Source: a virus (taxonomy: Duplodnaviria; Caudoviricetes). Taken from it: 64,000 nt of DNA. How positions within the stretch are numbered: the first letter of the stretch is position 1; each line of letters begins with the position of its first letter. The notes beneath the pieces were generated by a model. That model was not told the origin of the DNA, did no database searches, and saw only the letters and a list, made by a program, of their open reading frames with translations. The DNA is taken from the IMG/VR virus record IMGVR_UViG_3300030330_006019, positions 32,001 through 96,000 of that record; one strand, 5' to 3'. Both the position numbers and the translations under genes were made by a program. Positions 10,547 through 42,566 of the stretch are shown here, one piece after another.

Positions 10547-11717
10547 TTATTAACTCTCTTTCATATGTATCTAAAGATTTTATTTCAATATCAAATATGT
10601 CGTATTTCATATGACCAACCTGTCCACTGTCTGATAATATATTTGATAGCATTGTTAAAAAGTTAAATCTTTCTTGTGTACTTAAAGTTAATGCTGAAAA
10701 TTTTACAATGATATCTTCAGACGGTTTGGATGATATATCACTTAATTTTGAATTTAAGTCATATGATGTATTTTTGTCTTCAAGACTAATATATTTACTT
10801 ATAATTTTACTATCACAATATAATTTACTACACCAAGGTTCAATATGATACAATAATTGCACAGATGCATCATTACAATCATCAACCACAAATGCAATGT
10901 TATATTTTTTTGACACTATAGGTTTCATCATTTTATCATGTTGAACACCTGTTCCCCACTTTCTAATAAACTCCCTAGTTGAATTTGCCATCATTCTTTT
11001 CCAATCATTATGTCTATCCTCATCTCCGTCAAAACTACCTGCACCTCTACCTGTTAAATGATAAACAAAACTATTCCAACTCTGAATAAACTTATAACCT
11101 GCTAGATGCATTCTATTAAATACATCACTGTCTTCTCTACATGAATGTAATATTTTATCGTGGCCACCTATTTTTAGAAAATCTGATTTATACATCATCC
11201 AAGGAGCAAATATTCCTTCTGTAGTTTTGTCACCATATTTTTCTTTTGCCAACTTTACATAATTATCAAATTCTTTTGACTTAAAATCTTCAGGCCACAT
11301 ACCAAAATCAACTAATATTTTTTCACCAGCATTTGGATGAATAGGCGGTTCTATTCGTGTAGAACAAACAACATGATTTTCTTTAAGTTTTTTCCAAGCA
11401 ATTAAATCAGCATCTTTAGCTAACATCATATCTGCATGAAATATCATAAATACATCGGTTGTTGATTGCTTAATGCAATAATCATATGCCATTCCAATAC
11501 CGTACAAACTATTTCCTAAATCAGGATTTACATAGTATGATATATTGTAATCATCTTTAATATCCTTTAACCATTCTACTGTTCCATCTTCATCACTATC
11601 AACAAACACAATAATATCATGGTCTTTTCTATAAGCATTCTTTCTAATTGATGGAATACATTCTTTAAGATATCTTAAGTTACTTTTACTTGGTATGCAA
11701 AATGTTATCCTATCCAT
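10533..11717 (-). CDS. Glycosyltransferase family 2 with C-terminal extension
   Basis: ITFCIP, IFHADM, GGHD, REDSD, VYHLTGRG; start taken at MDRITF. Confidence 0.8.
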   Translation of the reverse strand: MDRITFCIPSKSNLRYLKECIPSIRKNAYRKDHDIIVFVDSDEDGTVEWLKDIKDDYNISYYVNPDLGNSLYGIGMAYDYCIKQSTTDVFMIFHADMMLAKDADLIAWKKLKENHVVCSTRIEPPIHPNAGEKILVDFGMWPEDFKSKEFDNYVKLAKEKYGDKTTEGIFAPWMMYKSDFLKIGGHDKILHSCREDSDVFNRMHLAGYKFIQSWNSFVYHLTGRGAGSFDGDEDRHNDWKRMMANSTREFIRKWGTGVQHDKMMKPIVSKKYNIAFVVDDCNDASVQLLYHIEPWCSKLYCDSKIISKYISLEDKNTSYDLNSKLSDISSKPSEDIIVKFSALTLSTQERFNFLTMLSNILSDSGQVGHMKYDIFDIEIKSLDTYERELINVKN

Positions 11718-12910
11718 TTCCAATCTCCTAACCATTCACAATCTTTTACAATTTGTGAAATTCTTTTTACATCATTTTTTGTTATTCCTAAATGTATTGG
11801 CAATGTAATTAATCTTTTTGAATATGAATGTGCATTTGGACATTTTCCATGACTATCACTATACATTGGATAATTTGTGTTATCAATATAATGTACACCT
11901 GGATATATTTCATTGTTATATAATAATTCAATTAGATTGTCACGACACTCAGCTGGTACTAATATCTGAAATAAATGTTTTGATGATGTTGCAACATACA
12001 AATCATCTTTTACAATTTCTATACATCTAGGGTCGTGTCTTCCCCAATCATCAGTTAAATATTCAGTGTACCAATCTGCAATCTGATTTCTATATTTATT
12101 GTCTTCATCTAATCTATCCAACTGAACTAAACCTATTGATGCCATTATAGAATTTCCATGATATTTGAATCCAATGTTTGGTACATCATATTTCCATTTA
12201 TACGAACCTTCAGTACTTCGTGAATATGTATCTTTGTCAATTCCTAACCATGAAAGTTGTCGTACTAACTTATCATCTTCTTCATCCCTAAAGCATATCA
12301 TTCCACTATCTGCCGTTGGTAAATTCTTTACAGCTTGGAAACTAAAAATAGTAACGTCTGCCTCTTTTCCAACATGTTCAGTTGTATAACCAACACCCAT
12401 AAATACATTTTTAATTTTAGTTCCTGACATATGAGCTGCATCTAAAATTAATCTTATATTATGCTTTTCACATATTCTCTTTACTTCTAATAATTCGCCT
12501 GTGTTTCCACCAATACCAACATATAAAACAGCTCGTGTTTTATCAGTAATATTTTCTTCAATTGACTTTGGGTCTAAACACATTGAGCTATCAACATCTG
12601 CAAATACTGGCTTTAATCTTTCGTACATTATTGCATGATTTGTTGATACAAATGTAAGAGGTGTGGTAATTATTTCATCACCATCTTTCCAACCATCTTT
12701 ATTTTTGAAAAGGTTTAGAGCCAAATGAAGTCCTACAGTATTTGACGCAATGAAGTGTGCATGTGGTAAATCAGTATATTCTTTCCACTTATCTTCAAAT
12801 TCAACAGTTTTGAAACCCATACCTGTCCAACCAGAATCCAAACACTCTCGCATTTGTTCTAATATTTTTTTAGTTTCAAATTTTGGCTTAAGTACATTTA
12901 TTTTTTTCAT
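11705..12910 (-). CDS. DegT/DnrJ/EryC1/StrS PLP-dependent sugar aminotransferase
   Basis: PLTFVST, ILDAAH, FSFQAVKNL (PLP Lys), GFKY, ITLPIH. Confidence 0.92.
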   Translation of the reverse strand: MKKINVLKPKFETKKILEQMRECLDSGWTGMGFKTVEFEDKWKEYTDLPHAHFIASNTVGLHLALNLFKNKDGWKDGDEIITTPLTFVSTNHAIMYERLKPVFADVDSSMCLDPKSIEENITDKTRAVLYVGIGGNTGELLEVKRICEKHNIRLILDAAHMSGTKIKNVFMGVGYTTEHVGKEADVTIFSFQAVKNLPTADSGMICFRDEEDDKLVRQLSWLGIDKDTYSRSTEGSYKWKYDVPNIGFKYHGNSIMASIGLVQLDRLDEDNKYRNQIADWYTEYLTDDWGRHDPRCIEIVKDDLYVATSSKHLFQILVPAECRDNLIELLYNNEIYPGVHYIDNTNYPMYSDSHGKCPNAHSYSKRLITLPIHLGITKNDVKRISQIVKDCEWLGDWKWIG

Positions 12911-25882: not shown

Positions 25883-26103
25883 TACTTTCTATTCCTATTT
25901 GGTCTATAACTATACCAAGCTCTTTCATGAAAATAATACAATACCATTTTTGTAATTAATTCTAGTGCACCTACCTTTAACCCAATCATAGGGTCTCCAC
26001 TAACAAGCCAACCTAATGCCATTGTATCTAATGTACCAACAACTCTCCATGTTATGGTTTTAATAATATGTCTACGCCTTGCAGCCCATTTATTTCTTGT
26101 CAC
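25882..26103 (-). CDS. DUF2061-like small membrane protein
   Basis: KTITWRVVGTLDT and KMVLYYFHERAW. Confidence 0.85.
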   Translation of the reverse strand: MTRNKWAARRRHIIKTITWRVVGTLDTMALGWLVSGDPMIGLKVGALELITKMVLYYFHERAWYSYRPNRNRK

Positions 26104-26453
26104 TTTAGCAACCCCTCTTTTCTCATTTGTTTTCTAATTTTAGTTGCTGATATCTTTTCAACTTGTGTTGGAGGTACATGTTCGATAATTTCATATCCAA
26201 CACCTCTGCCATAATTAACAGATTCTATGTCTGGTATAATTACTACCTTTATACTTCCATTTGCAATTTCTTTTGAAAATCTTTTATTTAAGTTTTGCTC
26301 AACTTCTTGTGGTGTCCAAGGTTGATTTTCATTTGGTTCAACATCCCTAATTGCTATACATATATTTTTGCCTTCTTTAATTCTTTGGTCTATTAACCAT
26401 TGATGGCCATCATGCCAAGGTTGCCACCTTCCTATAAACATTGAGTATTTCAT
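26100..26453 (-). CDS. HIGH-superfamily nucleotidyltransferase (cytidylyltransferase-like)
   Basis: FIGRWQPWHDGH, YGRGVGY, ISATKIR. Confidence 0.85.
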   Translation of the reverse strand: MKYSMFIGRWQPWHDGHQWLIDQRIKEGKNICIAIRDVEPNENQPWTPQEVEQNLNKRFSKEIANGSIKVVIIPDIESVNYGRGVGYEIIEHVPPTQVEKISATKIRKQMRKEGLLK

Positions 26454-27208
26454 ATTCCTTTATCTCTTTGTAAATTTAATGCTATTGCCCTTTCACCAGG
26501 CTTATCAGGATCCATATCATTAATAAGATATCTTGGACCTCGCTCAATCCCCATTATTAATCTATCAAATGGTATGTAATTATTTACCAATTCATTGATA
26601 GTATGTTCTCTCATATCTTCAGGTCTTGCTGTTGTTAAAATTATCATATGACCATCATCATACCACTCATTTAATTTATCAACAGTTGAAATTATAGGTT
26701 CTGCATCTGAAGTTGTATATGTTTCAAATTTTCTATACTTAAAAATTGTTCCATCAATGTCACAAAAATATGTATGCTTCTTTTTTACATTAAATGATAT
26801 TTTGTCTAAACACTTTTCAATAGAAATATTTGTTGTGTCCATGTCAATAAAATTTTCTGTAGGCTTTTCATAATCTTTTGCAAAATAGTCTTCCCTACCT
26901 CTAGTTTCAGTTGTATGAACATATATTTCAGTTACATCATTTGTTGCCTTTAGTGAATCTCTCATTTCCTTATATGGAGCAACAACTGAAACAACAACTG
27001 TCAATCCTTTATTATCTAAGAATCTACATAAATCCAATACTGACTGTATATTCTTTGTTCTCCCAGCTGGGCTATAGTCGAAATTTTGAAATAAATCTCG
27101 CAAACCATCACCATCAATATGAATGCAATTATCACTACATTTTTCTATCATTGCTTTAGCTAATGTTGTCTTACCAGCACCTGGCTGGCCTGTAAACCAA
27201 TATATCAT
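26450..27208 (-). CDS. cysC: Adenylyl-sulfate kinase fused to C-terminal HAD phosphatase
   Basis: WFTGQPGAGKTT P-loop, IDGDGLR, VVAPY, YEKP; then FCDIDGT, LTTAR, RYLIND. Confidence 0.85.
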   Translation of the reverse strand: MIYWFTGQPGAGKTTLAKAMIEKCSDNCIHIDGDGLRDLFQNFDYSPAGRTKNIQSVLDLCRFLDNKGLTVVVSVVAPYKEMRDSLKATNDVTEIYVHTTETRGREDYFAKDYEKPTENFIDMDTTNISIEKCLDKISFNVKKKHTYFCDIDGTIFKYRKFETYTTSDAEPIISTVDKLNEWYDDGHMIILTTARPEDMREHTINELVNNYIPFDRLIMGIERGPRYLINDMDPDKPGERAIALNLQRDKGI

Positions 27209-34148: not shown

Positions 34149-35372
34149 TTAAAATAACGATGTCTGTAATGATTCTTGAATAATCTTTTGATTTGTATTG
34201 TCTTGTTTTACAAAGAAACCATCAGCAGTTGGTAATTCACCATTTATATATTTTACAACTTGTTCAGTCATATCTCTTGCAGTACATGTAGGTACATTTT
34301 GTGCAATATGATTTACTTGCTTTACGTCTTCAATTACAAAGTCATGTGGTAGTCCCATTAGGTGTAAAAATTCTCTAACATTCAAATACCTATTTTCTGT
34401 TGGATGTACACCATTAAACATGTTCCTACCAATTAGTGCATTAAACGATTTACTAAAAATATGAGGTGAACTATCCCAATATCCTAGTCCCATTGACCTC
34501 TTTTTTAATACATGTTCTAACATACTAATAAATGTATTTGTTCCATTCTTTTTACTAAACCCTTCAGTTGGATAATATTTTTTTAACCAATCAATACATT
34601 CATGTACAAGGTCATATTTTTCAAGGTATTGATATAATGTTCCATGATTCCACCATTCAACAAATTCTTTATGAGTTTTACCTTCTCGTTCAAGAATAAA
34701 TTGGTATGGCTTAAAGTGTTCAGTTACAGAACCTGGTACCATAAACATATCTTGACAACTTGCATTTTTTGGTACCTCTAATAAATAATCTGCTAGTGAT
34801 TTACAATCTCTCTTATACCAATCAAATATAGGAGGCTTAGTACCTTTCCAAAAAAAGTAAAATGTTCTCATTCTTCTTTGTGGTATACCATGTAACTCTG
34901 TATTTGTCTTAATCATTGAAAAACTATAATCATATTCTTTTCCAATTGTCTTTAGTTTTTCTACAACACCTTCACCAAGTTTAGTAAATAGTCCAGGTGC
35001 ATTTTCTCCCCATAAAACTTTTGGCTTATAGTTTTCTAAAATTACCCTTGTAGATTTATACATCCATTCATTTTGTGCTGCATCACTACCTCTCTTATTT
35101 ATACTTCCTTCAATAGCAGATGAATTCAACATTGACAATCCTGCACAAGGACATACACTATTTACAAAATCAAGCTTACCTAAATCAGGAGTATTTCCTT
35201 CATCCAAAACATGATAAGGTACATCTGGCCAATGTCTTCTAATGTGACTTTCATTGGATGCAAATGGACTATATGTTAAATGTCCTACTGGTTGATTTTT
35301 TGTTGTCATACTGCAACCTACTGCACTACCACCAATAAGTGGTATTATTGTTGCCCATTTTATTTCGCTCAT
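34149..35372 (-). CDS. DNA cytosine-C5 methyltransferase-like protein with atypical motif I
   Basis: Motif I IIPLIGG, IV CPCAGLS, VI GENAPGL, VIII PQRRMR, IX RYLNVRE..LMGLP, X IAQNVP. Confidence 0.85.
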   Translation of the reverse strand: MSEIKWATIIPLIGGSAVGCSMTTKNQPVGHLTYSPFASNESHIRRHWPDVPYHVLDEGNTPDLGKLDFVNSVCPCAGLSMLNSSAIEGSINKRGSDAAQNEWMYKSTRVILENYKPKVLWGENAPGLFTKLGEGVVEKLKTIGKEYDYSFSMIKTNTELHGIPQRRMRTFYFFWKGTKPPIFDWYKRDCKSLADYLLEVPKNASCQDMFMVPGSVTEHFKPYQFILEREGKTHKEFVEWWNHGTLYQYLEKYDLVHECIDWLKKYYPTEGFSKKNGTNTFISMLEHVLKKRSMGLGYWDSSPHIFSKSFNALIGRNMFNGVHPTENRYLNVREFLHLMGLPHDFVIEDVKQVNHIAQNVPTCTARDMTEQVVKYINGELPTADGFFVKQDNTNQKIIQESLQTSLF

Positions 35373-36640
35373 ATTCTAACTCCTATATTTGTGTTTGCTA
35401 ACGATGTATTTACAATGTCATATACAAATGAACCATCTGTAACATTTTTAATTAAATTTTGTTGTAATAGATTAACCAATTGTATTCTCTTTTCAGGAAC
35501 TTCATCTAAAAATTTCATTTTGTCATAAAAATCTTGAGGACTTGAAACCCTACAGAAATGATTAAGAGGTAAAACATTTCCTTGAGTGTCGTATGTTGGA
35601 TGGAAAAAAGGTACAACACCCATCATAAGTACTTCAGCATATTTACTTGTTACCCAGTCAGGTCCTATTGGAATTACAAGAGTATATCGTGTATCCTTAA
35701 ACTTTTCATCTATTTCAGCTGGTGTAACATATCCCTTAAATTGTGGGTAACCATCTGTAAAGTGTTCTTTCCATTTACCATATATTTCAACTTCTTGGTC
35801 TGTATCACGGTCAAGAATCCATTCTTTTATTGCATCAAATCTTTTATCCTTTGTTGCTTGACCTGTTACACTCTGCATTGCTACAATTGTAAACTTTGTA
35901 TTTCTAGTTATACTAGGTTTTATAATTTTTTCATCTACAAGATTAAGCTTTTCAATTCCACTATATCTTACATTAATTGTTTTGTCCTCAAATTCAGCAT
36001 CATTTCTGTATTCCTTTAAGCTATGCCAAATACTTGTTGTATTATACTGTGCAATTATTTCTTTTGGATAATTTACAGTATCTTTTGCCTTAAATATTGG
36101 TTTAGTATATCTAGGGTCTGTACATATCATATACCAAGGAAGGTCTGATTTATTTAGATAGTGAACAATTGGTGAAGAATAATTATATGTCATACCTAGA
36201 AGTTTTACCTTTGAACTAGGGTCTCTTACACCATCTAAGAAATTAGGTATAACATTGTTTGTCATATATCCTGGTCCAATAAATCCTAAACCAAAATCTG
36301 GTTTTGTTTCATCATGATTTAGATATTCATCAAGTCTTTGGTAATTTAGAGTCAATTGCATATCCTGGCCCTTATCTGGTCTTATATCTTTTGGGTCAAG
36401 TTCATCATAGATATATCTTAAAACTCCACGTGGGTCATATTCTTGCTTTTCAAACATATCAAGTTTTCCCCAATCACTCTTTTGTATAATAAGTACCTCC
36501 CCAATTTTTGGATTAGAACATAGTGATTTTATAAGTTTATAATACTCATTAGTACCATCGGCACGTTTAAGATTCTTTTTTACAAATTTAATTGCACCAC
36601 CTAATACAAAGATAGCGACTTTAATGTTGTCAGTTTTCAT
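35369..36640 (-). CDS. GT-B glycosyltransferase resembling T4 DNA beta-glucosyltransferase
   Basis: CTDPR, IYGKW, FKGYV...EK...WVTSKYAE...YDTQ...FCRVSSPQDF recalls the BGT C-terminal pattern; lies in dCMP-modification cluster; start at MKTDNI. Confidence 0.7.
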   Translation of the reverse strand: MKTDNIKVAIFVLGGAIKFVKKNLKRADGTNEYYKLIKSLCSNPKIGEVLIIQKSDWGKLDMFEKQEYDPRGVLRYIYDELDPKDIRPDKGQDMQLTLNYQRLDEYLNHDETKPDFGLGFIGPGYMTNNVIPNFLDGVRDPSSKVKLLGMTYNYSSPIVHYLNKSDLPWYMICTDPRYTKPIFKAKDTVNYPKEIIAQYNTTSIWHSLKEYRNDAEFEDKTINVRYSGIEKLNLVDEKIIKPSITRNTKFTIVAMQSVTGQATKDKRFDAIKEWILDRDTDQEVEIYGKWKEHFTDGYPQFKGYVTPAEIDEKFKDTRYTLVIPIGPDWVTSKYAEVLMMGVVPFFHPTYDTQGNVLPLNHFCRVSSPQDFYDKMKFLDEVPEKRIQLVNLLQQNLIKNVTDGSFVYDIVNTSLANTNIGVRI

Positions 36641-38213
36641 ATGTAAATTCCTCATATATTAAATTCATGGCTCTTAACCAAAATGCTTTACATCTTTCTG
36701 GGTTATCTTGGTGAAAAGGTATACAAGTTAAAAATAACATTATTGCAAGTCTCTTAACATTTCCTATATCATAACCATACTCGTTCATTTTAATTAACAT
36801 ATTAACCAATATCTTGTTTTGCTTTTCCTCATCCCAATGAAGTATTACCTTTGAACCTTCAATGTGATATCTTCCAGAAACTATCATCATGTATCCACAA
36901 TACCAATCATGTAAAAGTTTACCCATATCATACTGTGCGTCACCAGAAAACTTTGACATTCCAAAATATCCCCTAGGGTCTAGTAACTTAATTCTACCAT
37001 TGTGACTATTAAATAACATATTTCCTAAATGTAAATCACCATGAATTCTTTCACTCCACTTTGATGTCTGTAATAACTTTAGGCCTGATTGTTTTATAAA
37101 TTTCTTTGCAGTGTCTATACCTATAAAGTCATTATACATTTCACTATCCAGCCTGTCCATGTTTTTTTGAATATACATTTCATAGCAGTCTGAAAGTTTT
37201 TCCTTTCCTAGTTTATAAAACACTTTGTGATATATATCAAGTATTGAATTTGTAACACCTATCCATGTATCAGCATTCATTCTTTCATATAGCCAAACTT
37301 CATTTAGTGGAGTACCGGCTTCCCATGACATTTTCATTTCGCCATGTTGTGAATCCAAAATTTGTGGTACAAATAATCGCTGAGTATCATTTAATGTATT
37401 AAACCAATTCTTTTCTTTCTCTATCTTAAGTGCTTTATCACCAGTTGCCTTTTTGGTAATTGTACCTAAAAATGTATCTATCTCAAGTGTATTAAACTCT
37501 CTAGATGAACCTTGCATTAGACGGGCTGTTGATTCATAATATGTTTTTAATTCACCACAATCATACCATTCCGTAGTATCTAATAATTCAAAATTAGGTA
37601 TGTAATTAAGATATTCTGATAGTAATGCTGCTATTTGGTGTTCACCTTTATGTTGAGGTTGATTCATTCCTTTCTTAATAGAATCATTAAACCATTTTCT
37701 ATTGTTAAAATAATATAGACCTATAAGTGCAGAATCTGTAGGTACATCATTATCAGGTTTGTCATAAAATGTTTTACCATTACTATCAACTAAGCACCAT
37801 CTAGATTTTTGTTCAACCTTTGATACTCCTAAAAATCCTGGACTATTAAAGTTTAATTCGTCACGGCAAATTGTATCACCTAACCAAATCAATACAGAAT
37901 TGTCTTTTTTTGTTGATTTTTTCCATCCAACCTCAATTGCATGTAGTGGCCCTTTTGGATTTTTTTGTTCAACAAACTTAAATGTATTTTCAATAAATGA
38001 ATATGTAGATTTAACAAATTCACTAATATCATGTAATTTATTTTCAACAATGATTATTTCATTTACATTATGATATTGTAATAATTCATCTAAGATATAT
38101 GAAATAATAGGTTTACCACAAACAGGTATCATTGCCTTTGACATGTTACTTGAAAGTGGCCTCATTCTTGTTGCCAAACCGGCTGCTGGTATTATTACTG
38201 ATATATTAGTCAT
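36630..38213 (-). CDS. Sugar-phosphate nucleotidyltransferase fused to APH/choline-kinase-like phosphotransferase
   Basis: IIPAAGLATRMRP...K, WLGD, WYDCG (NTP transferase); IHGDLHLGN, LLDPRG, YDMGKL (kinase). Confidence 0.85.
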   Translation of the reverse strand: MTNISVIIPAAGLATRMRPLSSNMSKAMIPVCGKPIISYILDELLQYHNVNEIIIVENKLHDISEFVKSTYSFIENTFKFVEQKNPKGPLHAIEVGWKKSTKKDNSVLIWLGDTICRDELNFNSPGFLGVSKVEQKSRWCLVDSNGKTFYDKPDNDVPTDSALIGLYYFNNRKWFNDSIKKGMNQPQHKGEHQIAALLSEYLNYIPNFELLDTTEWYDCGELKTYYESTARLMQGSSREFNTLEIDTFLGTITKKATGDKALKIEKEKNWFNTLNDTQRLFVPQILDSQHGEMKMSWEAGTPLNEVWLYERMNADTWIGVTNSILDIYHKVFYKLGKEKLSDCYEMYIQKNMDRLDSEMYNDFIGIDTAKKFIKQSGLKLLQTSKWSERIHGDLHLGNMLFNSHNGRIKLLDPRGYFGMSKFSGDAQYDMGKLLHDWYCGYMMIVSGRYHIEGSKVILHWDEEKQNKILVNMLIKMNEYGYDIGNVKRLAIMLFLTCIPFHQDNPERCKAFWLRAMNLIYEEFTYEN

Positions 38214-38443: not shown

Positions 38444-38821
38444 TTAGTATGGAAGGTCTAAATTTATGTTACCTATTCCTTCAGTATCTCGTTTAAGATT
38501 TATTGCAAAGGCAGTTGCCTCCCTTCCATTTTTTTTCATATCATTTATTAAGTATCTTGGGCCACCACCAAATCCCATTATCAATTGGTCATAAACTATT
38601 CCAGCCTCAGCAAGTTGACGCTCTGTTTGGTTTTTCATACACAATCTTCTACCAGTTGTTAAAATTATATTGTAGCCTTTTCTTTCCCACTCCAATAATT
38701 TTTCAATCGTTCCTGGCAATACCTCCATTTTATTATATGGAGATGTTGCTTCTGATGGTGACATGTGCTTTACTAGCGTACCATCTATATCACAAAATAT
38801 TGTTTTAGGTCTATTATCCAT
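38444..38821 (-). CDS. Minimal HAD-family phosphatase
   Basis: IFCDIDGTL, ILTTGR, PRYLIND. Confidence 0.85.
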   Translation of the reverse strand: MDNRPKTIFCDIDGTLVKHMSPSEATSPYNKMEVLPGTIEKLLEWERKGYNIILTTGRRLCMKNQTERQLAEAGIVYDQLIMGFGGGPRYLINDMKKNGREATAFAINLKRDTEGIGNINLDLPY

Positions 38822-39258
38822 TATTGTATCCCAGTACTACCAAATCCACCTGTTCCTCTGGTTGAATCAGAGTTATACAAGTTAGATTCGTCTACTTCTT
38901 CTAAATTAGGTGGTCCTAATGGCAATAAAACAAACTGAACTATTTTATCACCTGGATTGATATACACAGTATTCTTTCCATAATTAAATAAGTGTATATG
39001 TACCTCTCCTTGATAACCACAATCAACAACACAAGCTCCAACTTGCAATTCACGAATAGTTGCAATTCCAGATTTATTAAATGCTATTAAAGCATAACCC
39101 TCAGGTACATCAACTTTAATACCAGATGGAATTAGACACTTTTCATTTGACCTTAATTCGGTTACAACCATATCATTTGGTACAAAAAAGTCAATACCAG
39201 CATCTGTTGGATTTGCCCGTGTTGGTGTTTTTACATCTCTTACTTTTGAAAACTTCAT
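38821..39258 (-). CDS. dut: Trimeric dUTPase
   Basis: DAGIDF, KSG, VVDCGYQGE, KIVQ, RGTGGFGSTG; start moved to MKFSKV with GGAG RBS. Confidence 0.93.
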   Translation of the reverse strand: MKFSKVRDVKTPTRANPTDAGIDFFVPNDMVVTELRSNEKCLIPSGIKVDVPEGYALIAFNKSGIATIRELQVGACVVDCGYQGEVHIHLFNYGKNTVYINPGDKIVQFVLLPLGPPNLEEVDESNLYNSDSTRGTGGFGSTGIQ

Positions 39259-39440
39259 TTTACAATCTCCTCTTTTTCTCTTGCCTTTATATCGCATTCA
39301 GCCAACACATCACCAATCACTTTTTTACTTGATGGAGAAAGTTCGCCATACTCCAATTTACTCAATGCGTTTTGTAAAGCAACCTTAACCCAAGCTTTTT
39401 TATAAGTTGGATTCCATTTACGTACTAATTTTTTAGCCAT
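39255..39440 (-). CDS. Small hypothetical protein
   Basis: 61-aa ORF coupled to neighbours. Confidence 0.55.
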   Translation of the reverse strand: MAKKLVRKWNPTYKKAWVKVALQNALSKLEYGELSPSSKKVIGDVLAECDIKAREKEEIVK

Positions 39441-39717
39441 TATCTTTTTCCTTTATATAGTTATCTAATCCTCCTAAATATGCAACTGCATCTAATAAAT
39501 TATCTTCTCTATAATTATATGAGTGTCTAGATAATTTTAGTGCAATTAATGCAGCATACATATCTTCTGCTACAAAATCCTTTCCAGTCATGCCACTTGC
39601 GATTTTAGCCGCACGTTCCATTCCTTCACTAAAAGGTCCATACTGTCTTTCCTTTTCTTCAGAGCGATTGTTTATTATACCATCTGCCCTTTTAAGTATT
39701 GATTCTTTCTTTTTCAT
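39433..39717 (-). CDS. DUF6378-like protein
   Basis: SILKRA..I...RQYG...LKLSR...DNLLDAVAY pattern. Confidence 0.75.
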   Translation of the reverse strand: MKKKESILKRADGIINNRSEEKERQYGPFSEGMERAAKIASGMTGKDFVAEDMYAALIALKLSRHSYNYREDNLLDAVAYLGGLDNYIKEKDNG

Positions 39718-40583
39718 ATAAATAATTTTTTACTAATATCATTTGCATATTCACCAATCTGTTCTTTTGTCATATCTTTTTCTGGTAAATACATCTTGTT
39801 TTGTTGTATATAATCTAATGTTACATGGTCATTTAACTTATAATACTTTCCATAGTATTCTGTGTCTTCACTATCAATTGATAAAATATTATGTGCCATT
39901 TCATTATGCATTTCATATAGGTGTAAACTTCCTGCATGGTGATAATATGAACCAAGTTCTAAATCTGGGTATACAGTTTTTAATTCATTATACATTAATT
40001 GTTGAAATAAACAAAATATGAAAATATCATTTGACATTCCAAAAATAATATCATTACTTCTCATACTTACACCCATATGAAGTTTATTATTTCTTATAAA
40101 AAACTGCAAGTATTGTGTACATGGTATATCGTTTGGATTTTTTGTTTTATGATATGGTTGTCCTATAACAAATGTTGCACGTCGACTATCTTTATCTTTT
40201 GTCAATTCATTTACAGACCAGTTCCATTGATTTCCAAAAACATAACAGCCATAATTTGATTCTACATTATCTTCACCATCCTTTATGTTTAACCAAATTC
40301 TTGCAAATTTACCAATATTTGTTGCATTAGGATTTCTTGACAAATACCAAAGAAATTCTGCTAACGTATATGTTTCATTAAATTTTCTACTTGGCCACCA
40401 AATACCTAAATCTGTCGGGTTGTCTATAACAAAACTTCTAAATAAAACTTCTTTTTGGTTTGTTCCACGACTTTGTACAGTGTTTGTTTGATTTACAATA
40501 TTTTGTAATTCCCAGTAAAATGCTTCATGTAAATTTGTATATCTACCTGTTTCTATTTTTGGTACTGACCAGTATTTTCTCAT
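39714..40583 (-). CDS. Thymidylate-synthase-superfamily dCMP hydroxymethylase-like enzyme (T4 gp42-like)
   Basis: EFLWY, VESNYG, DSRRA, PCT, MRSNDIIFGMSND (Asp at the dCMP-specificity position), GSLHLY. Confidence 0.8.
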   Translation of the reverse strand: MRKYWSVPKIETGRYTNLHEAFYWELQNIVNQTNTVQSRGTNQKEVLFRSFVIDNPTDLGIWWPSRKFNETYTLAEFLWYLSRNPNATNIGKFARIWLNIKDGEDNVESNYGCYVFGNQWNWSVNELTKDKDSRRATFVIGQPYHKTKNPNDIPCTQYLQFFIRNNKLHMGVSMRSNDIIFGMSNDIFIFCLFQQLMYNELKTVYPDLELGSYYHHAGSLHLYEMHNEMAHNILSIDSEDTEYYGKYYKLNDHVTLDYIQQNKMYLPEKDMTKEQIGEYANDISKKLFI

Positions 40584-41484: not shown

Positions 41485-41673
41485 CTAATCTATGATTTTA
41501 ACTGTAAAGGATTTTAGGCCTTTATATTTCATATCACTCATTGCATTACATAATACGTACTGTACATTTCTTTCAATTGTATTATGTCCATCATTGTCCA
41601 CTATGACCTCTTTCATAGCAGGGCCTGAATTTAATTTAACAGGTTGAGAAAATTTTATCTTTACACTTTTCAT
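41485..41673 (-). CDS. Small hypothetical protein
   Basis: ORF coupled to cysteine synthase stop. Confidence 0.55.
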   Translation of the reverse strand: MKSVKIKFSQPVKLNSGPAMKEVIVDNDGHNTIERNVQYVLCNAMSDMKYKGLKSFTVKIID

Positions 41674-42566
41674 AAGCAACTAAAATACCTTTCACCTCTA
41701 TCACAAAGGATTGTTATTGCATGTTTACAATCATTGTCTCTTAACCATTCAAATGCTGCCTTAACATTTGCACCTGCACTTATTCCTACAAACAGTCCAA
41801 ACCTATGTGCTAAATGGCGTGCTACTTTTCTTGCACAATTTGTATGTACTGTTTTTATTTCAGTAATTTTTTGCAAATCAACTAGAAATTTACTACCATC
41901 TCCAATACCTTGTATTCCATGAAGTCCTGCTTCACCACCTGACATTACTGCTGACTCTTCTGGTTCAACTGCTACTAAATTCATTCCTGGATAATGTTCT
42001 CTAAGATATTTTCCACAACCCATTATTGTTCCGCCTGTACCTGTTCCTGCTACAAATGCTTGTGGCCAACCTATATTTTGATCAAGTTGTTGTCTAATTT
42101 GTTTTTCTATTTCTGGTCCAGTATTTTTATAGTGTGCTTCAATGTTCAAGGGGTTATGAAATTGATTACAATTGAACCAACCCATCTTTTCACACATTTC
42201 ATCTCTTACCCGTATTGCATTGTCAAAGTCACCTTCCTTAACTTCTATCAAATGAGCACCATAAAACTTCATCATTCGTTTTCTTTCTTCAGACATATTT
42301 GAAGGCATAATGATTGTCATTTGATAACCTCTCTCTGCTGCTAACATAGCAAAAGCAATTCCTGTATTTCCAGAAGTTGCTTCACAAAGTACATCACCTT
42401 TTCTTATTAGATTATTATTTTCTGCATGGTTCAGTATATGAGTTGCCATTCTGTCTTTAACAGAACCGCCAGGATTCATAAATTCACATTTACCCCAAAC
42501 TGTATAACCACCCATTGTAATTGGTATCAATGGTGTATTTCCTACATAACTACTTAACATTTTCAT
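41670..42566 (-). CDS. cysK: Cysteine synthase (O-acetylserine sulfhydrylase) family
   Basis: VGNTPL, NPGGSVKDR, EATSGNTG, NQFHNP, GTGTGGT, HGIQGIG, CDRGERY. Confidence 0.92.
   Translation of the reverse strand: MKMLSSYVGNTPLIPITMGGYTVWGKCEFMNPGGSVKDRMATHILNHAENNNLIRKGDVLCEATSGNTGIAFAMLAAERGYQMTIIMPSNMSEERKRMMKFYGAHLIEVKEGDFDNAIRVRDEMCEKMGWFNCNQFHNPLNIEAHYKNTGPEIEKQIRQQLDQNIGWPQAFVAGTGTGGTIMGCGKYLREHYPGMNLVAVEPEESAVMSGGEAGLHGIQGIGDGSKFLVDLQKITEIKTVHTNCARKVARHLAHRFGLFVGISAGANVKAAFEWLRDNDCKHAITILCDRGERYFSCL

What the first reader, a model, noticed from the sequence alone, without database searches (positions are those of the whole stretch)
34149..35372. C5-methyltransferase with altered SAM motif inside a cluster that should already occupy C5
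Seen: catalytic motifs IV (PC), VI (EN) and VIII (QxRxR) are intact, but motif I is IIPLIGG instead of FxGxGG and motif X is AQNV instead of GN(S/A)V. The gene overlaps the BGT-like gene (ATGA-type coupling). Established: C5-MTases cannot methylate a cytosine already substituted at C5, and in vitro without SAM they can remove the hydroxymethyl group from hmC or couple thiols to it. Inference: the enzyme may protect residual unmodified C, use a SAM analogue such as carboxy-SAM, or act on hmC itself. The cysteine synthase about 1 kb upstream of the operon could be a thiol source, which is speculative.
Basis: partly seen in the sequence, partly recalled or inferred. Interest (0 to 1): 0.72.

Follow-up and report, generated by a model that had tools for sequence, protein, structure and literature searches.

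The report
Odd cytosine methylase in hmC-sugar operon
A large uncultured phage carries an intact relative of DNA cytosine-5 methylases whose cofactor pocket is conserved but altered. Across many phage lineages this clade sits with the genes that replace cytosine by sugar-coated hydroxymethylcytosine, so it probably modifies leftover cytosines, but its chemistry is untested.

Summary
The minus-strand ORF 34149-35372 encodes a 407-aa protein with a C5-MTase fold (Z 24.6 to M.HaeIII). Catalytic PC, EN and QxRxR are intact. Motif I reads IIPLIGG and motif X reads AQNV. The start overlaps the stop of the BGT-like gene (ATGA).

These changes are the invariant signature of a large, almost entirely viral clade, so the pocket is re-specified, not decayed.

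The clade co-occurs with a T4 gp42-type dCMP hydroxymethylase:
- all 14 searched contigs of 100 kb or more;
- phage G and Pseudoalteromonas phage XG4; S-TIM5 has a dCMP-type homologue with a TS-like PCH motif.

It usually lies next to DNA glycosyltransferases and NDP-sugar enzymes, and shares a C-terminal K-x-K-x-LF tail with those glycosyltransferases.

One sub-clade sits in eukaryote-like contigs with Zn-finger/CXXC tails and keeps the same pocket. The chemistry is therefore probably not tied to hmC.

Best reading (0.45): an active post-replicative C5 transferase, most likely still SAM-type, covering cytosines not replaced by hmC. Action on hmC (0.18) or a non-SAM donor (0.17) stays open. 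The cysteine-synthase link is not supported. No CmoA or TET was found.

The scan had flagged this clade before on other DNA. I found no paper describing it.

The parts
34149..35372 (-). C5-MTase-fold gene (407 aa, P0001), the finding
   Evidence: ORF and translation. PF00145 at 3.4e-14. AF2 model pLDDT 90. VIA Z 24.6 to M.HaeIII, 24.3 to CmoX, about 23 to M.HhaI.
35328..35348 (-). Motif I variant IIPLIGG (residues 9-15)
   Evidence: hhalign maps canonical F-x-G-x-G-G onto I10-P11-L12-I13-G14-G15. P11, L12 and G14 are invariant in A1.
35250..35276 (-). Remodelled motif II region (T33-Y34 ... F37 ... N40-E41)
   Evidence: hhalign places the canonical Glu-Trp on S/T33-Y34. S/T33, Y34, F37, N40 and E/D41 are near-invariant in 120 sequences.
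35145..35150 (-). Motif IV Pro75-Cys76 (catalytic cysteine)
   Evidence: The A1 profile aligns it to the PC of M.HaeIII and DIM2. C76 is present in 120/120.
35001..35006 (-). Motif VI Glu123-Asn124 (GENAPG; Ala replaces the usual Val)
34866..34880 (-). Motif VIII QRRMR (Q165, R167, R169)
34293..34304 (-). Motif X variant AQNV (Gln358 in place of the canonical Asn)
   Evidence: HMMER and hhalign alignments to GNAVP/GNSV. Q358 is present in 119/120.
34152..34172 (-). Unstructured C-terminal tail SLQTSLF
   Evidence: pLDDT is below 50 at residues 404-407. The tail type K-x-K-x-LF is shared with the DNA glycosyltransferases of related clusters.
35369..36655 (-). GT-B glycosyltransferase, distant BGT-like, translationally coupled to the finding
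   Evidence: PF13524 at 4.4e-5 and phrog_7922 beta-glucosyltransferase at 5e-4. ATGA overlap. A homologue lies within 10 kb in 50 of 80 loci.
36630..38213 (-). Sugar-1-phosphate nucleotidyltransferase fused to an APH-like kinase domain
   Evidence: PF00483 at 3e-21 and PF01636 at 6.5e-4. RmlA/GalU/MurU-type NCBIfam hits.
38444..38821 (-). Small HAD phosphatase
38821..39297 (-). dUTPase-family enzyme
   Evidence: PF00692 at 5e-22.
39433..39717 (-). DUF6378 protein, always between the TS-like gene and dUTPase in five lineages
   Evidence: PF19905 at 2e-9. Synteny.
39714..40583 (-). T4 gp42-type dCMP hydroxymethylase
   Evidence: Best PDB hits are MilA CMP hydroxymethylase (5e-21) and T4 dCMP hydroxymethylase (2.5e-18). 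It has Asp at the ThyA N177 position, Asp three residues before the Cys, and keeps D169, so it is not the 5hoC type of PMC13326640.
33920..34147 (-). 75-aa ORF starting 1 nt after the finding's stop codon, function unknown
   Evidence: No Pfam or PHROG hit. Conserved only in L002.

Best explanation
The gene encodes a catalytically competent DNA cytosine-C5 transferase from a distinct clade that is viral apart from one eukaryote-like sub-clade and a few copies in cellular assemblies. It is a standing part of phage modules that replace cytosine by glycosylated 5-hydroxymethylcytosine.

Proposed mechanism:
1. It works on newly made phage DNA, recruited by the same kind of C-terminal tail as the DNA glycosyltransferases.
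2. It flips out a cytosine.
3. Cys76 attacks C6.
4. A one-carbon group is put on C5. The donor sits in a remodelled but strictly conserved pocket and is most likely S-adenosylmethionine.

Its substrates would be cytosines that escaped replacement by hmC. These could arise from residual dCTP, from early rounds of replication, or at particular short motifs. The finished DNA would then carry no bare cytosine.

Shown here: the fold, the intact catalytic residues, the conserved altered pocket, the genomic linkage and the shared tail.

Inferred: the donor, the substrate and the timing.
For: - Fold and catalytic motifs: AF2 pLDDT 90. VIA Z is 23-24.6 to M.HaeIII, CmoX and M.HhaI, with the model's residue 2 aligned to HhaI residue 10. 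C76, E123, R167 and R169 are in 120/120 homologues.
- The pocket is re-specified, not decayed: IPLIGG, S33-Y34, F37, N40-E/D41, D57 and Q358-N359 are all near-invariant. A hydrophobic residue, an aromatic residue, an acidic residue and an Asp remain roughly where adenosine-binding residues sit in canonical enzymes.
- The chemistry is probably not tied to hmC: the 520-713 aa forms make one clade (SH-aLRT 99) nested inside the viral radiation. They sit in contigs with SH3, RhoGEF and EF-hand genes. They carry Zn-finger or CXXC tails and keep every pocket residue.
- Tandem paralogues, both with intact motifs, occur in L056 and L057. This is the pattern of site-specific DNA methylases.
- It acts on DNA alongside the glycosyltransferases. 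A C-terminal hydrophobic dipeptide (the K-x-K-x-LF-type tail) is found in MT-like 13/22 lineages, BGT-like 7/11, AGT-like 2/4 and the GT-A-like family 4/4. It is absent from 0/11 epimerases, 0/9 nucleotidyltransferases and 0/6 dNMP kinases. Background is 16%.
- The gene's GC equals the window's (31.5% against 31.4%), so it is native to this genome.
Against: - A methylase has no substrate if hmC replacement is complete. The operon carries dUTPase-family and DUF6378 genes that could exclude dCTP.
- This clade travels with gp42-type genes almost without exception, yet T-even phages manage without it. An ordinary protective methylase would not need that linkage.
- The acidic motif II residue, the first Gly of motif I and the Asn of motif X are all replaced family-wide. 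From memory, I know no characterised C5-MTase with this combination. In CmoX the same motif X position switches the cofactor.
- SAM binding was not tested. No model coordinates were available for a pocket analysis.
Confidence: 0.45

Rival explanations
1. The enzyme acts on 5-hydroxymethylcytosine already in the DNA and needs no methyl donor. Cys76 adds to C6. The 5-CH2-OH group, or a phosphorylated or glycosylated form of it, leaves to give an exocyclic methylene. A nucleophile held in the remodelled pocket then adds, giving a new 5-(X-methyl)cytosine. Alternatively formaldehyde is released.
For: - It directly explains the near-obligate linkage to gp42-type genes in 22 lineages.
- The gene is translationally coupled to enzymes that act on the hm group: BGT-like here, AGT-like (PF11440) in L067, and a protein with the helical domain of 5-hmdU DNA kinase (PF18723, 6e-7) in L055.
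- Established knowledge, from memory: C5-MTases without SAM can remove the hydroxymethyl group from hmC or couple thiols to it in vitro (Liutkeviciute et al.).
Against: - The eukaryote-context clade keeps the same pocket without any sign of a phage hmC pathway.
- No conserved candidate enzyme that would make a nucleophile or co-substrate travels with the family. The cysteine synthase occurs in one lineage only.
- T4-type glycosylation needs no such helper.
- Tandem paralogues fit site specificity better than a general hmC chemistry.
Confidence: 0.18
2. The enzyme modifies unsubstituted cytosine at C5 with a donor other than SAM's methyl group. The donor could be a SAM derivative, or SAM bound so that another group is transferred. 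The product would be a C5 adduct that is not 5mC. The published parallel is CmoX with carboxy-SAM.
For: - CmoX shows that one change at the motif X Asn (to Arg350) re-aims a C5-MTase to carboxy-SAM. Here the same position is an invariant Gln.
- The first Gly of motif I, which lies near the methionine part of SAM, is an invariant bulky Leu.
- CmoX is among the closest structures (Z 24.3).
Against: - The protein has no Arg at that position and no SPPC motif. No CmoA (TIGR00740) was found in the 105-kb record.
- No conserved cofactor-making enzyme travels with the family.
- The donor would have to exist in bacteria and in eukaryotes, which favours plain SAM.
Confidence: 0.17
3. The protein targets unmodified host DNA rather than phage DNA. 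It would act as a roadblock, a mutator or a marker on bare cytosines, and so help the phage tell host DNA from its own hmC DNA.
For: - Host DNA is the only place where bare cytosine is certainly plentiful in an hmC phage.
- Established knowledge, from memory: C5-MTases starved of SAM bind flipped cytosine tightly and promote its deamination.
Against: - The C-terminal tail is shared with the DNA glycosyltransferases, whose substrate is phage DNA.
- The strict conservation of the cofactor pocket argues for a bound cofactor.
- The eukaryotic clade does not fit this role.
Confidence: 0.07

Closest known systems
Canonical bacterial and phage DNA C5-cytosine methyltransferases (M.HaeIII, M.HhaI, Dcm; Pfam PF00145)
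   Same: The two-domain fold is the same (Z 23-24.6). It keeps the catalytic Pro-Cys, the Glu of motif VI, the Arg-x-Arg of motif VIII and the Arg-Glu of motif IX.
   Different: - Motif I is I-P-L-I-G-G instead of F-x-G-x-G-G.
- The motif II Glu maps to Ser/Thr.
- Motif VI is ENA, not ENV.
- Motif X is A-Q-N-V, not G-N-(S/A)-V.
- The target-recognition domain is mostly helical and alignable across the whole clade.
- It scores below the NCBIfam dcm cut-off.
- It is linked to hmC genes, not to restriction enzymes.
CmoX, the phage DNA cytosine C5-carboxymethyltransferase (PDB 8YF3; PMC12783734)
   Same: It is a phage C5-MTase homologue whose motif X Asn is replaced, and it serves DNA hypermodification. 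It is among the closest structures (Z 24.3).
   Different: CmoX keeps Phe25, Glu47 and Asp69 for adenosine. It has SPPC and Arg350, and it travels with CmoA and an amide ligase. The window protein has Ile, Ser/Thr, VCPC and Gln. No CmoA was found. Its neighbours are hmC and sugar genes.
Phage C5-MT + TET/5mYOX + glycosyltransferase clusters (PMC8256090; bioRxiv 10.1101/2023.12.21.572611)
   Same: A C5-MTase-type gene lies next to DNA glycosyltransferases in a cytosine hypermodification cluster.
   Different: In those clusters the methylase supplies 5mC, which TET oxidises to hmC at GpC sites. Here hmC comes from a thymidylate-synthase homologue before replication. No Tet_JBP match was found in five records, one of them 97% complete (no positive control).
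T-even glucosyl-hmC pathway (gp42, gp1, gp56, alpha- and beta-glucosyltransferase)
   Same: It has a gp42-type hydroxymethylase signature, dNMP kinase and dUTPase-family genes in related clusters, and BGT-like and AGT-like transferases.
   Different: T-even phages have no member of this methylase-like clade: tblastn finds it in only 8 of 50,697 phage records. The window operon also makes its own NDP-sugar.

Membership tests
DNA C5-cytosine methyltransferases (PF00145) | Two-domain C5-MTase fold | tested here: met
   AF2 pLDDT 90. VIA Z 24.6, rmsd 2.9 A over 268 residues to 1dct. Foldseek E 1e-13.
DNA C5-cytosine methyltransferases (PF00145) | Pfam gathering score | tested here: met
   53.4 bits against a cut-off of 22, but the match starts at profile position 50.
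DNA C5-cytosine methyltransferases (PF00145) | Motif IV Pro-Cys nucleophile, motif VI Glu, motif VIII Arg-x-Arg | tested here: met
   P75-C76, E123, R167 and R169 are invariant in 120 homologues and aligned to HaeIII and DIM2.
DNA C5-cytosine methyltransferases (PF00145) | Motif I F-x-G-x-G-G | tested here: not met
   It reads I-P-L-I-G-G. Phe is replaced by Ile and the first Gly by Leu.
DNA C5-cytosine methyltransferases (PF00145) | Motif II acidic residue at the end of strand 2 (binds the ribose hydroxyls) | tested here: inconclusive
   hhalign puts Ser/Thr33 there with low column confidence. An invariant Asn40-Glu/Asp41 lies seven residues later.
DNA C5-cytosine methyltransferases (PF00145) | Motif X G-N-(S/A)-V | tested here: not met
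   It reads A-Q-N-V, with Gln358 at the Asn position.
DNA C5-cytosine methyltransferases (PF00145) | NCBIfam dcm (TIGR00675) curated cut-off | tested here: not met
   37 bits against 100.65.
DNA C5-cytosine methyltransferases (PF00145) | Binds SAM and makes 5-methylcytosine | not testable with these tools
   This needs binding and activity assays.
CmoX carboxymethyltransferases | SPPC motif and Arg at the HhaI Asn304 position | tested here: not met
   VCPC and Gln358.
CmoX carboxymethyltransferases | Co-occurrence with the carboxy-SAM synthase CmoA | tested here: inconclusive
   TIGR00740 has no match in the 105-kb record, which is only about 42% of the genome.
MT + TET/5mYOX + GT post-replicative hmC systems | A TET/JBP dioxygenase in the cluster or genome | tested here: inconclusive
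   PF12851 has no match in G000 or four related records, one 97% complete, but the search had no positive control. The neighbouring unknown ORFs have no Pfam hit.
T4-type pre-replicative hmC pathway (as a module member) | A gp42-type dCMP hydroxymethylase in the same genome | tested here: met
   Window gene 39714-40583. The same signature is in 33 related contigs and in phage G and XG4; S-TIM5 has a dCMP-type homologue with a TS-like PCH motif.

The most novel reading that the evidence does not exclude
The invariant, rewritten pocket (Leu for the first Gly of motif I, Ser/Thr for the motif II Glu, Gln for the motif X Asn) does not hold SAM in the usual way. The clade would then carry out a DNA base chemistry not yet described. 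One option is covalent C6 catalysis that exchanges the leaving group on 5-hydroxymethylcytosine. The other is transfer of a non-methyl group to C5. Either way it would be a second natural case, after CmoX, of a C5-methylase fold re-aimed to hypermodification.
Probability: 0.3. Interest if true: 0.85.

Novelty: new variant of a known kind. Interest (0 to 1): 0.6.

Why it matters
C5-methylases are among the best-understood DNA enzymes. A large, conserved clade that rewrites the cofactor motifs yet keeps the catalytic ones is therefore unusual, and more so because it lives almost only in phages whose C5 position should already be filled.

Possible outcomes:
- If it is a plain methylase, hmC phages run a second, post-replicative layer that mops up bare cytosine. 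That changes how complete 'complete replacement' is assumed to be.
- If it uses another donor or acts on hmC, it is a new DNA modification enzyme. It could be useful as a tool, as the carboxymethylating enzymes and the glucosyltransferases have been in epigenome sequencing.

The clade is abundant in marine viromes: 258 confirmed IMG/VR stretches and thousands of protein clusters. It also occurs in three cultured phages, S-TIM5, vB_Psh_XG4 and phage G, so the question can be answered at the bench now. The eukaryotic offshoot with CXXC/Zn-finger tails is a possible undescribed DNMT lineage of phage origin.

Tried and rejected
- **Carboxy-SAM route:** no CmoA in the record, no Arg or SPPC. Set aside, not excluded for the missing 58% of the genome.
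- **TET route:** no Tet_JBP in five records (no positive control). The unknown neighbours turned out to be more glycosyltransferases. f51 is related to the BGT-like family (hhalign 94%). f10 has an invariant DDD motif as in GT-A enzymes.
- **Cysteine synthase as thiol source:** present only in the window and in L002. Rejected.
- **Sliding-clamp docking of the tail:** no gp45-type clamp was found in the 105-kb record. The window's PolB does not end in a similar tail. The shared tail is real, but its partner is unknown.
- **Complex prediction (methylase relative with the glycosyltransferase):** No result.
- **Cellular genomes:** the scan of 185,579 species gave 6 loci. Four carry a gp42-type gene nearby, one of them the IMG/VR contig of L073, and a fifth (9 kb) a dNMP kinase; these look like phage contigs binned into MAGs. 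The one copy in an isolate sits among lambda-type phage genes in Victivallis vadensis, a genome with no ThyA-family gene. Its motif I is degenerate compared with its closest relatives. It is therefore weak evidence either way.
- **dCTP exclusion as a test of residual C:** DUF6378 and MazG searches in five genomes gave mixed results. Inconclusive.
- **Promoter and terminator scan:** no more sites than in shuffled sequence.
- **Literature:** searches on S-TIM5, hypermodification terms, carboxymethylcytosine, C5-methyltransferase with 5hmdCMP, and the motif strings found no description of this clade.
- **ESM Atlas:** gave only 'viral DNA methylase' clusters.
- **HMMER pairwise alignment to HhaI:** it shifts the PC motif by five residues. 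The profile alignments overrule it.
Full report
**What is there.** The window is bases 32001-96000 of a 105-kb IMG/VR virus record that CheckV rates about 42% complete, so it is a fragment of a large phage. The finding is the minus-strand ORF 34149-35372, 407 aa.

It closes a tightly packed minus-strand run of genes:
- a thymidylate-synthase homologue (39714-40583)
- DUF6378
- a dUTPase-family gene
- a small HAD phosphatase
- a sugar-1-phosphate nucleotidyltransferase fused to an APH-like kinase
- a distant BGT-like GT-B glycosyltransferase (35369-36655)
- the methylase relative
- then a 75-aa ORF, other short ORFs and a family-B DNA polymerase

The methylase start ATG overlaps the glycosyltransferase stop (ATGA), with AGGAG 7 nt upstream. 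The gene's GC equals that of the window.

**The observation.**
- Pfam PF00145 matches at 3.4e-14, but only from profile position 50.
- The curated NCBIfam dcm model scores 37 bits against a cut-off of 100.65.
- An AlphaFold2 model from 29 homologues has mean pLDDT 90. The low-confidence stretch (residues 77-86) follows the catalytic Cys76.
- By VIA-align the model matches M.HaeIII (Z 24.6, rmsd 2.9 A over 268 residues), CmoX (24.3), the Cp-933R methylase (24.2), and DNMT1 and M.HhaI (about 23-24). The alignments start at model residues 1-4.
- A profile of the family aligns P75-C76 with the catalytic PC of HaeIII and DIM2, and AQNVP with GNAVP.

**Where the family differs from canonical enzymes.** I compared the family with seven canonical enzymes by profile-profile alignment: Dcm and six phage methylases fetched. 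The comparison gives 95-97% probability over residues 2-395.
- The canonical Phe of motif I maps to Ile10.
- The first Gly of motif I maps to Leu12.
- The Gly-Gly of motif I is kept.
- The motif II Glu-Trp maps to Ser/Thr33-Tyr34, with modest column confidence.
- The motif X Gly-Asn-Ser maps to Ala357-Gln358-Asn359.

In 120 homologues these altered positions are as conserved as the catalytic ones. Four further residues that canonical enzymes lack are also near-invariant: Phe37, Asn40, Glu/Asp41 and Asp57. The pocket has been re-specified, not lost. It still offers a hydrophobic residue, an aromatic residue, an acidic residue and an Asp roughly where adenosine is held in known enzymes.

**The neighbour that matters.**
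- The TS homologue best matches MilA CMP hydroxymethylase and T4 dCMP hydroxymethylase.
- It has Asp at the ThyA Asn177 position and Asp three residues before the catalytic Cys.
- It keeps the Asp169 equivalent. By the signature published for 5-hydroxycytosine synthases (Asp169 to Asn; PMC13326640) it is therefore a hydroxymethylase, not a hydroxylase.

**Is the linkage general?**
- A scan of IMG/VR confirmed 258 stretches encoding a relative, and I kept 80 loci.
- Within 10 kb of the methylase relative, 50 loci have a homologue of the window's glycosyltransferase and 23 have the TS homologue.
- In the large marine group with RecA and DnaB nearby, the TS homologue lies about 50-60 kb away. It is found in every contig of that group of 78 kb or more that was searched.
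- All 14 searched contigs of 100 kb or more have it. Every copy recovered carries the gp42-type signature.
- Two complete cultured genomes agree: Bacillus phage G, about 13 kb away and beside two annotated alpha-glucosyltransferases, a HAD hydrolase and a glucose-1-phosphate thymidylyltransferase; and Pseudoalteromonas phage vB_Psh_XG4, 5 kb away with the same gene order as the window. Cyanophage S-TIM5 has a homologue 2.4 kb away with Asp at the base-specificity position but a TS-like PCH motif.
- In cultured phages a close gp42 homologue occurs in 594 of 50,697 records, mostly T-even types. Those lack the methylase relative.
- So the methylase relative implies a gp42-type gene, but not the reverse.

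**What else travels with it.** I grouped the 84 loci into 22 lineages, with under 75% identity between methylase relatives of different lineages. Within 7 kb the commonest neighbours are:

| Neighbour | Lineages (of 22) |
|---|---|
| TS homologue | 13 |
| NAD-dependent sugar epimerase/dehydratase | 11 |
| BGT-like transferase | 10 |
| Nucleotidyltransferase | 9 |
| HAD phosphatase | 7 |

The gene immediately upstream varies by lineage. It is BGT-like, AGT-like (PF11440), a third GT-B family, an epimerase, or a 484-aa protein with the helical domain of 5-hmdU DNA kinase. Two lineages, and a third related contig, carry two tandem paralogues with all motifs intact.

**A shared tail.** Many members end in an unstructured tail of the type K-x-K-x-L-F.

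| Protein family | Lineages ending in a hydrophobic dipeptide (the tail proxy) |
|---|---|
| Methylase relative | 13 of 22 |
| BGT-like transferase | 7 of 11 |
| AGT-like transferase | 2 of 4 |
| GT-A-like family | 4 of 4 |
| Epimerase | 0 of 11 |
| Nucleotidyltransferase | 0 of 9 |
| dNMP kinase | 0 of 6 |
| Background (other proteins) | 16% |

The enzymes that must touch DNA thus share a docking tail that the small-molecule enzymes lack. This places the methylase relative on the same DNA as the glycosyltransferases. I could not test that.

**Evidence that the chemistry does not depend on hmC.**
- Twenty-nine of the 120 closest homologues are 520-713 aa long. They have K/E-rich linkers and C-terminal Zn fingers, and one has a CXXC domain.
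- They fall within a single clade of 36 sequences (SH-aLRT 99) nested deep inside the viral radiation when phage G, S-TIM5 and XG4 are the outer branches.
- The two I looked up lie in contigs with sparse, fragmentary gene calls carrying SH3, RhoGEF, EF-hand and Ctr domains, which look like eukaryotic DNA.
- They keep every pocket and catalytic residue.
- An enzyme that works in a eukaryotic nucleus with the same pocket most simply uses a universal donor on ordinary cytosine.

In cellular genomes the family is almost absent. Of six loci in 185,579 species, four carry a gp42-type gene nearby, one of them the IMG/VR contig of L073, and a fifth carries a dNMP kinase. The sixth, among lambda-type phage genes in Victivallis vadensis, has a degenerate motif I.

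**Published precedent.** CmoX of Synechococcus phage S-B43 is a C5-methylase homologue in which the motif X Asn is Arg350. It uses carboxy-SAM made by a phage CmoA (PMC12783734). This shows that the position changed here can re-aim the cofactor. The window protein, however, lacks the Arg, the SPPC motif and a CmoA gene. The MT-TET-GT clusters of Burke et al. and the 2023 NEB preprint differ in making hmC after replication. No Tet_JBP match was found in five records.

**Verdict.** The enzyme is real, active-looking, and part of the hmC-glycosylation module.
- I put 0.45 on a SAM-type methyl transfer to cytosines that hmC replacement leaves bare.
- I put 0.18 on chemistry on hmC itself.
- I put 0.17 on a non-methyl donor.
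- I put 0.07 on a host-directed role.
- The remainder is unassigned.

The cysteine-synthase idea is not supported. The same clade had been flagged on other DNA earlier in this scan with the same open question. New here are the residue mapping, the lineage-level synteny, the shared tail, the eukaryotic offshoot, the cultured-phage test cases and the CmoX comparison. I found no paper describing the clade.

Noticed in passing
L055:8547-10001 (+), also L050, L052, L060, L069: A 481-601 aa protein with the helical domain of 5-hmdU DNA kinase (PF18723, 6e-7; phrog_17781). It is translationally coupled to the methylase relative in clusters whose TS homologue is cytosine-type. It is a candidate 5-hydroxymethylcytosine DNA kinase, which to my knowledge has not been described.
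   Followed up: partly
C-termini of genes in L002-L081; window 34152-34172: A K-x-K-x-LF-type C-terminal tail is shared by the methylase relatives and three families of DNA glycosyltransferases. The small-molecule enzymes of the same clusters lack it. The docking partner is unknown.
   Followed up: partly
P0036-P0118 long forms; L106:421-2235, L108:314-1930: One clade of 520-713 aa homologues with Zn-finger/CXXC tails sits in eukaryote-like contigs and is nested within the phage radiation. It may be a phage-derived DNMT lineage in marine protists.
   Followed up: partly
L056:9977-12413, L057:6843-9253, L065:11188-12384: In L056 and L057, two tandem paralogues of the methylase relative both keep intact catalytic motifs. 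The second belongs to a distinct subtype (LCPCAGLSA, I[ST]QNVP), of which L065 carries a copy at 11188-12384.
   Followed up: partly
L092:5781-6617 (S-TIM5 gp076): The gene is annotated as thymidylate synthase. It has Asp at the ThyA Asn177 position together with a TS-like PCH motif. It is probably a dCMP methylase or hydroxymethylase rather than a dUMP enzyme.
   Followed up: partly
L094 and L098 (Bacillus phage G, 211-234 kb of the record): Phage G carries a gp42-type hydroxymethylase about 13 kb from a cluster of two AGT-like genes, a HAD hydrolase, a thymidylyltransferase and gp301. This implies glycosylated hmC in this giant phage.
   Followed up: no
window 36630-38213 (-): A nucleotidyltransferase fused to an APH-like kinase domain resembles a MurU/AmgK-type sugar salvage pair in one protein. 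The same fusion stands in XG4 and four other lineages.
   Followed up: no
L097 (XG4, record 271-816): The gp42-type gene of phage XG4 has an in-frame TAA in the deposited, unannotated record. This may be a sequencing error or a real break.
   Followed up: no
L120:170-240: In one metagenome contig the ATG and the IIPLIGG motif of a homologue lie in different frames, about 1 nt out. This explains gene calls that start after motif I (P0123, P0126, P0128, P0131). Whether it is an error or a real frameshift is unknown.
   Followed up: partly
window 41670-42566 and 26100-27208 (-): A cysteine-synthase-like PLP enzyme, an APS-kinase/HAD fusion and a small cytidylyltransferase-like gene lie in the same window. 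These sulfur-related genes are not linked to the methylase clade in other lineages.
   Followed up: no
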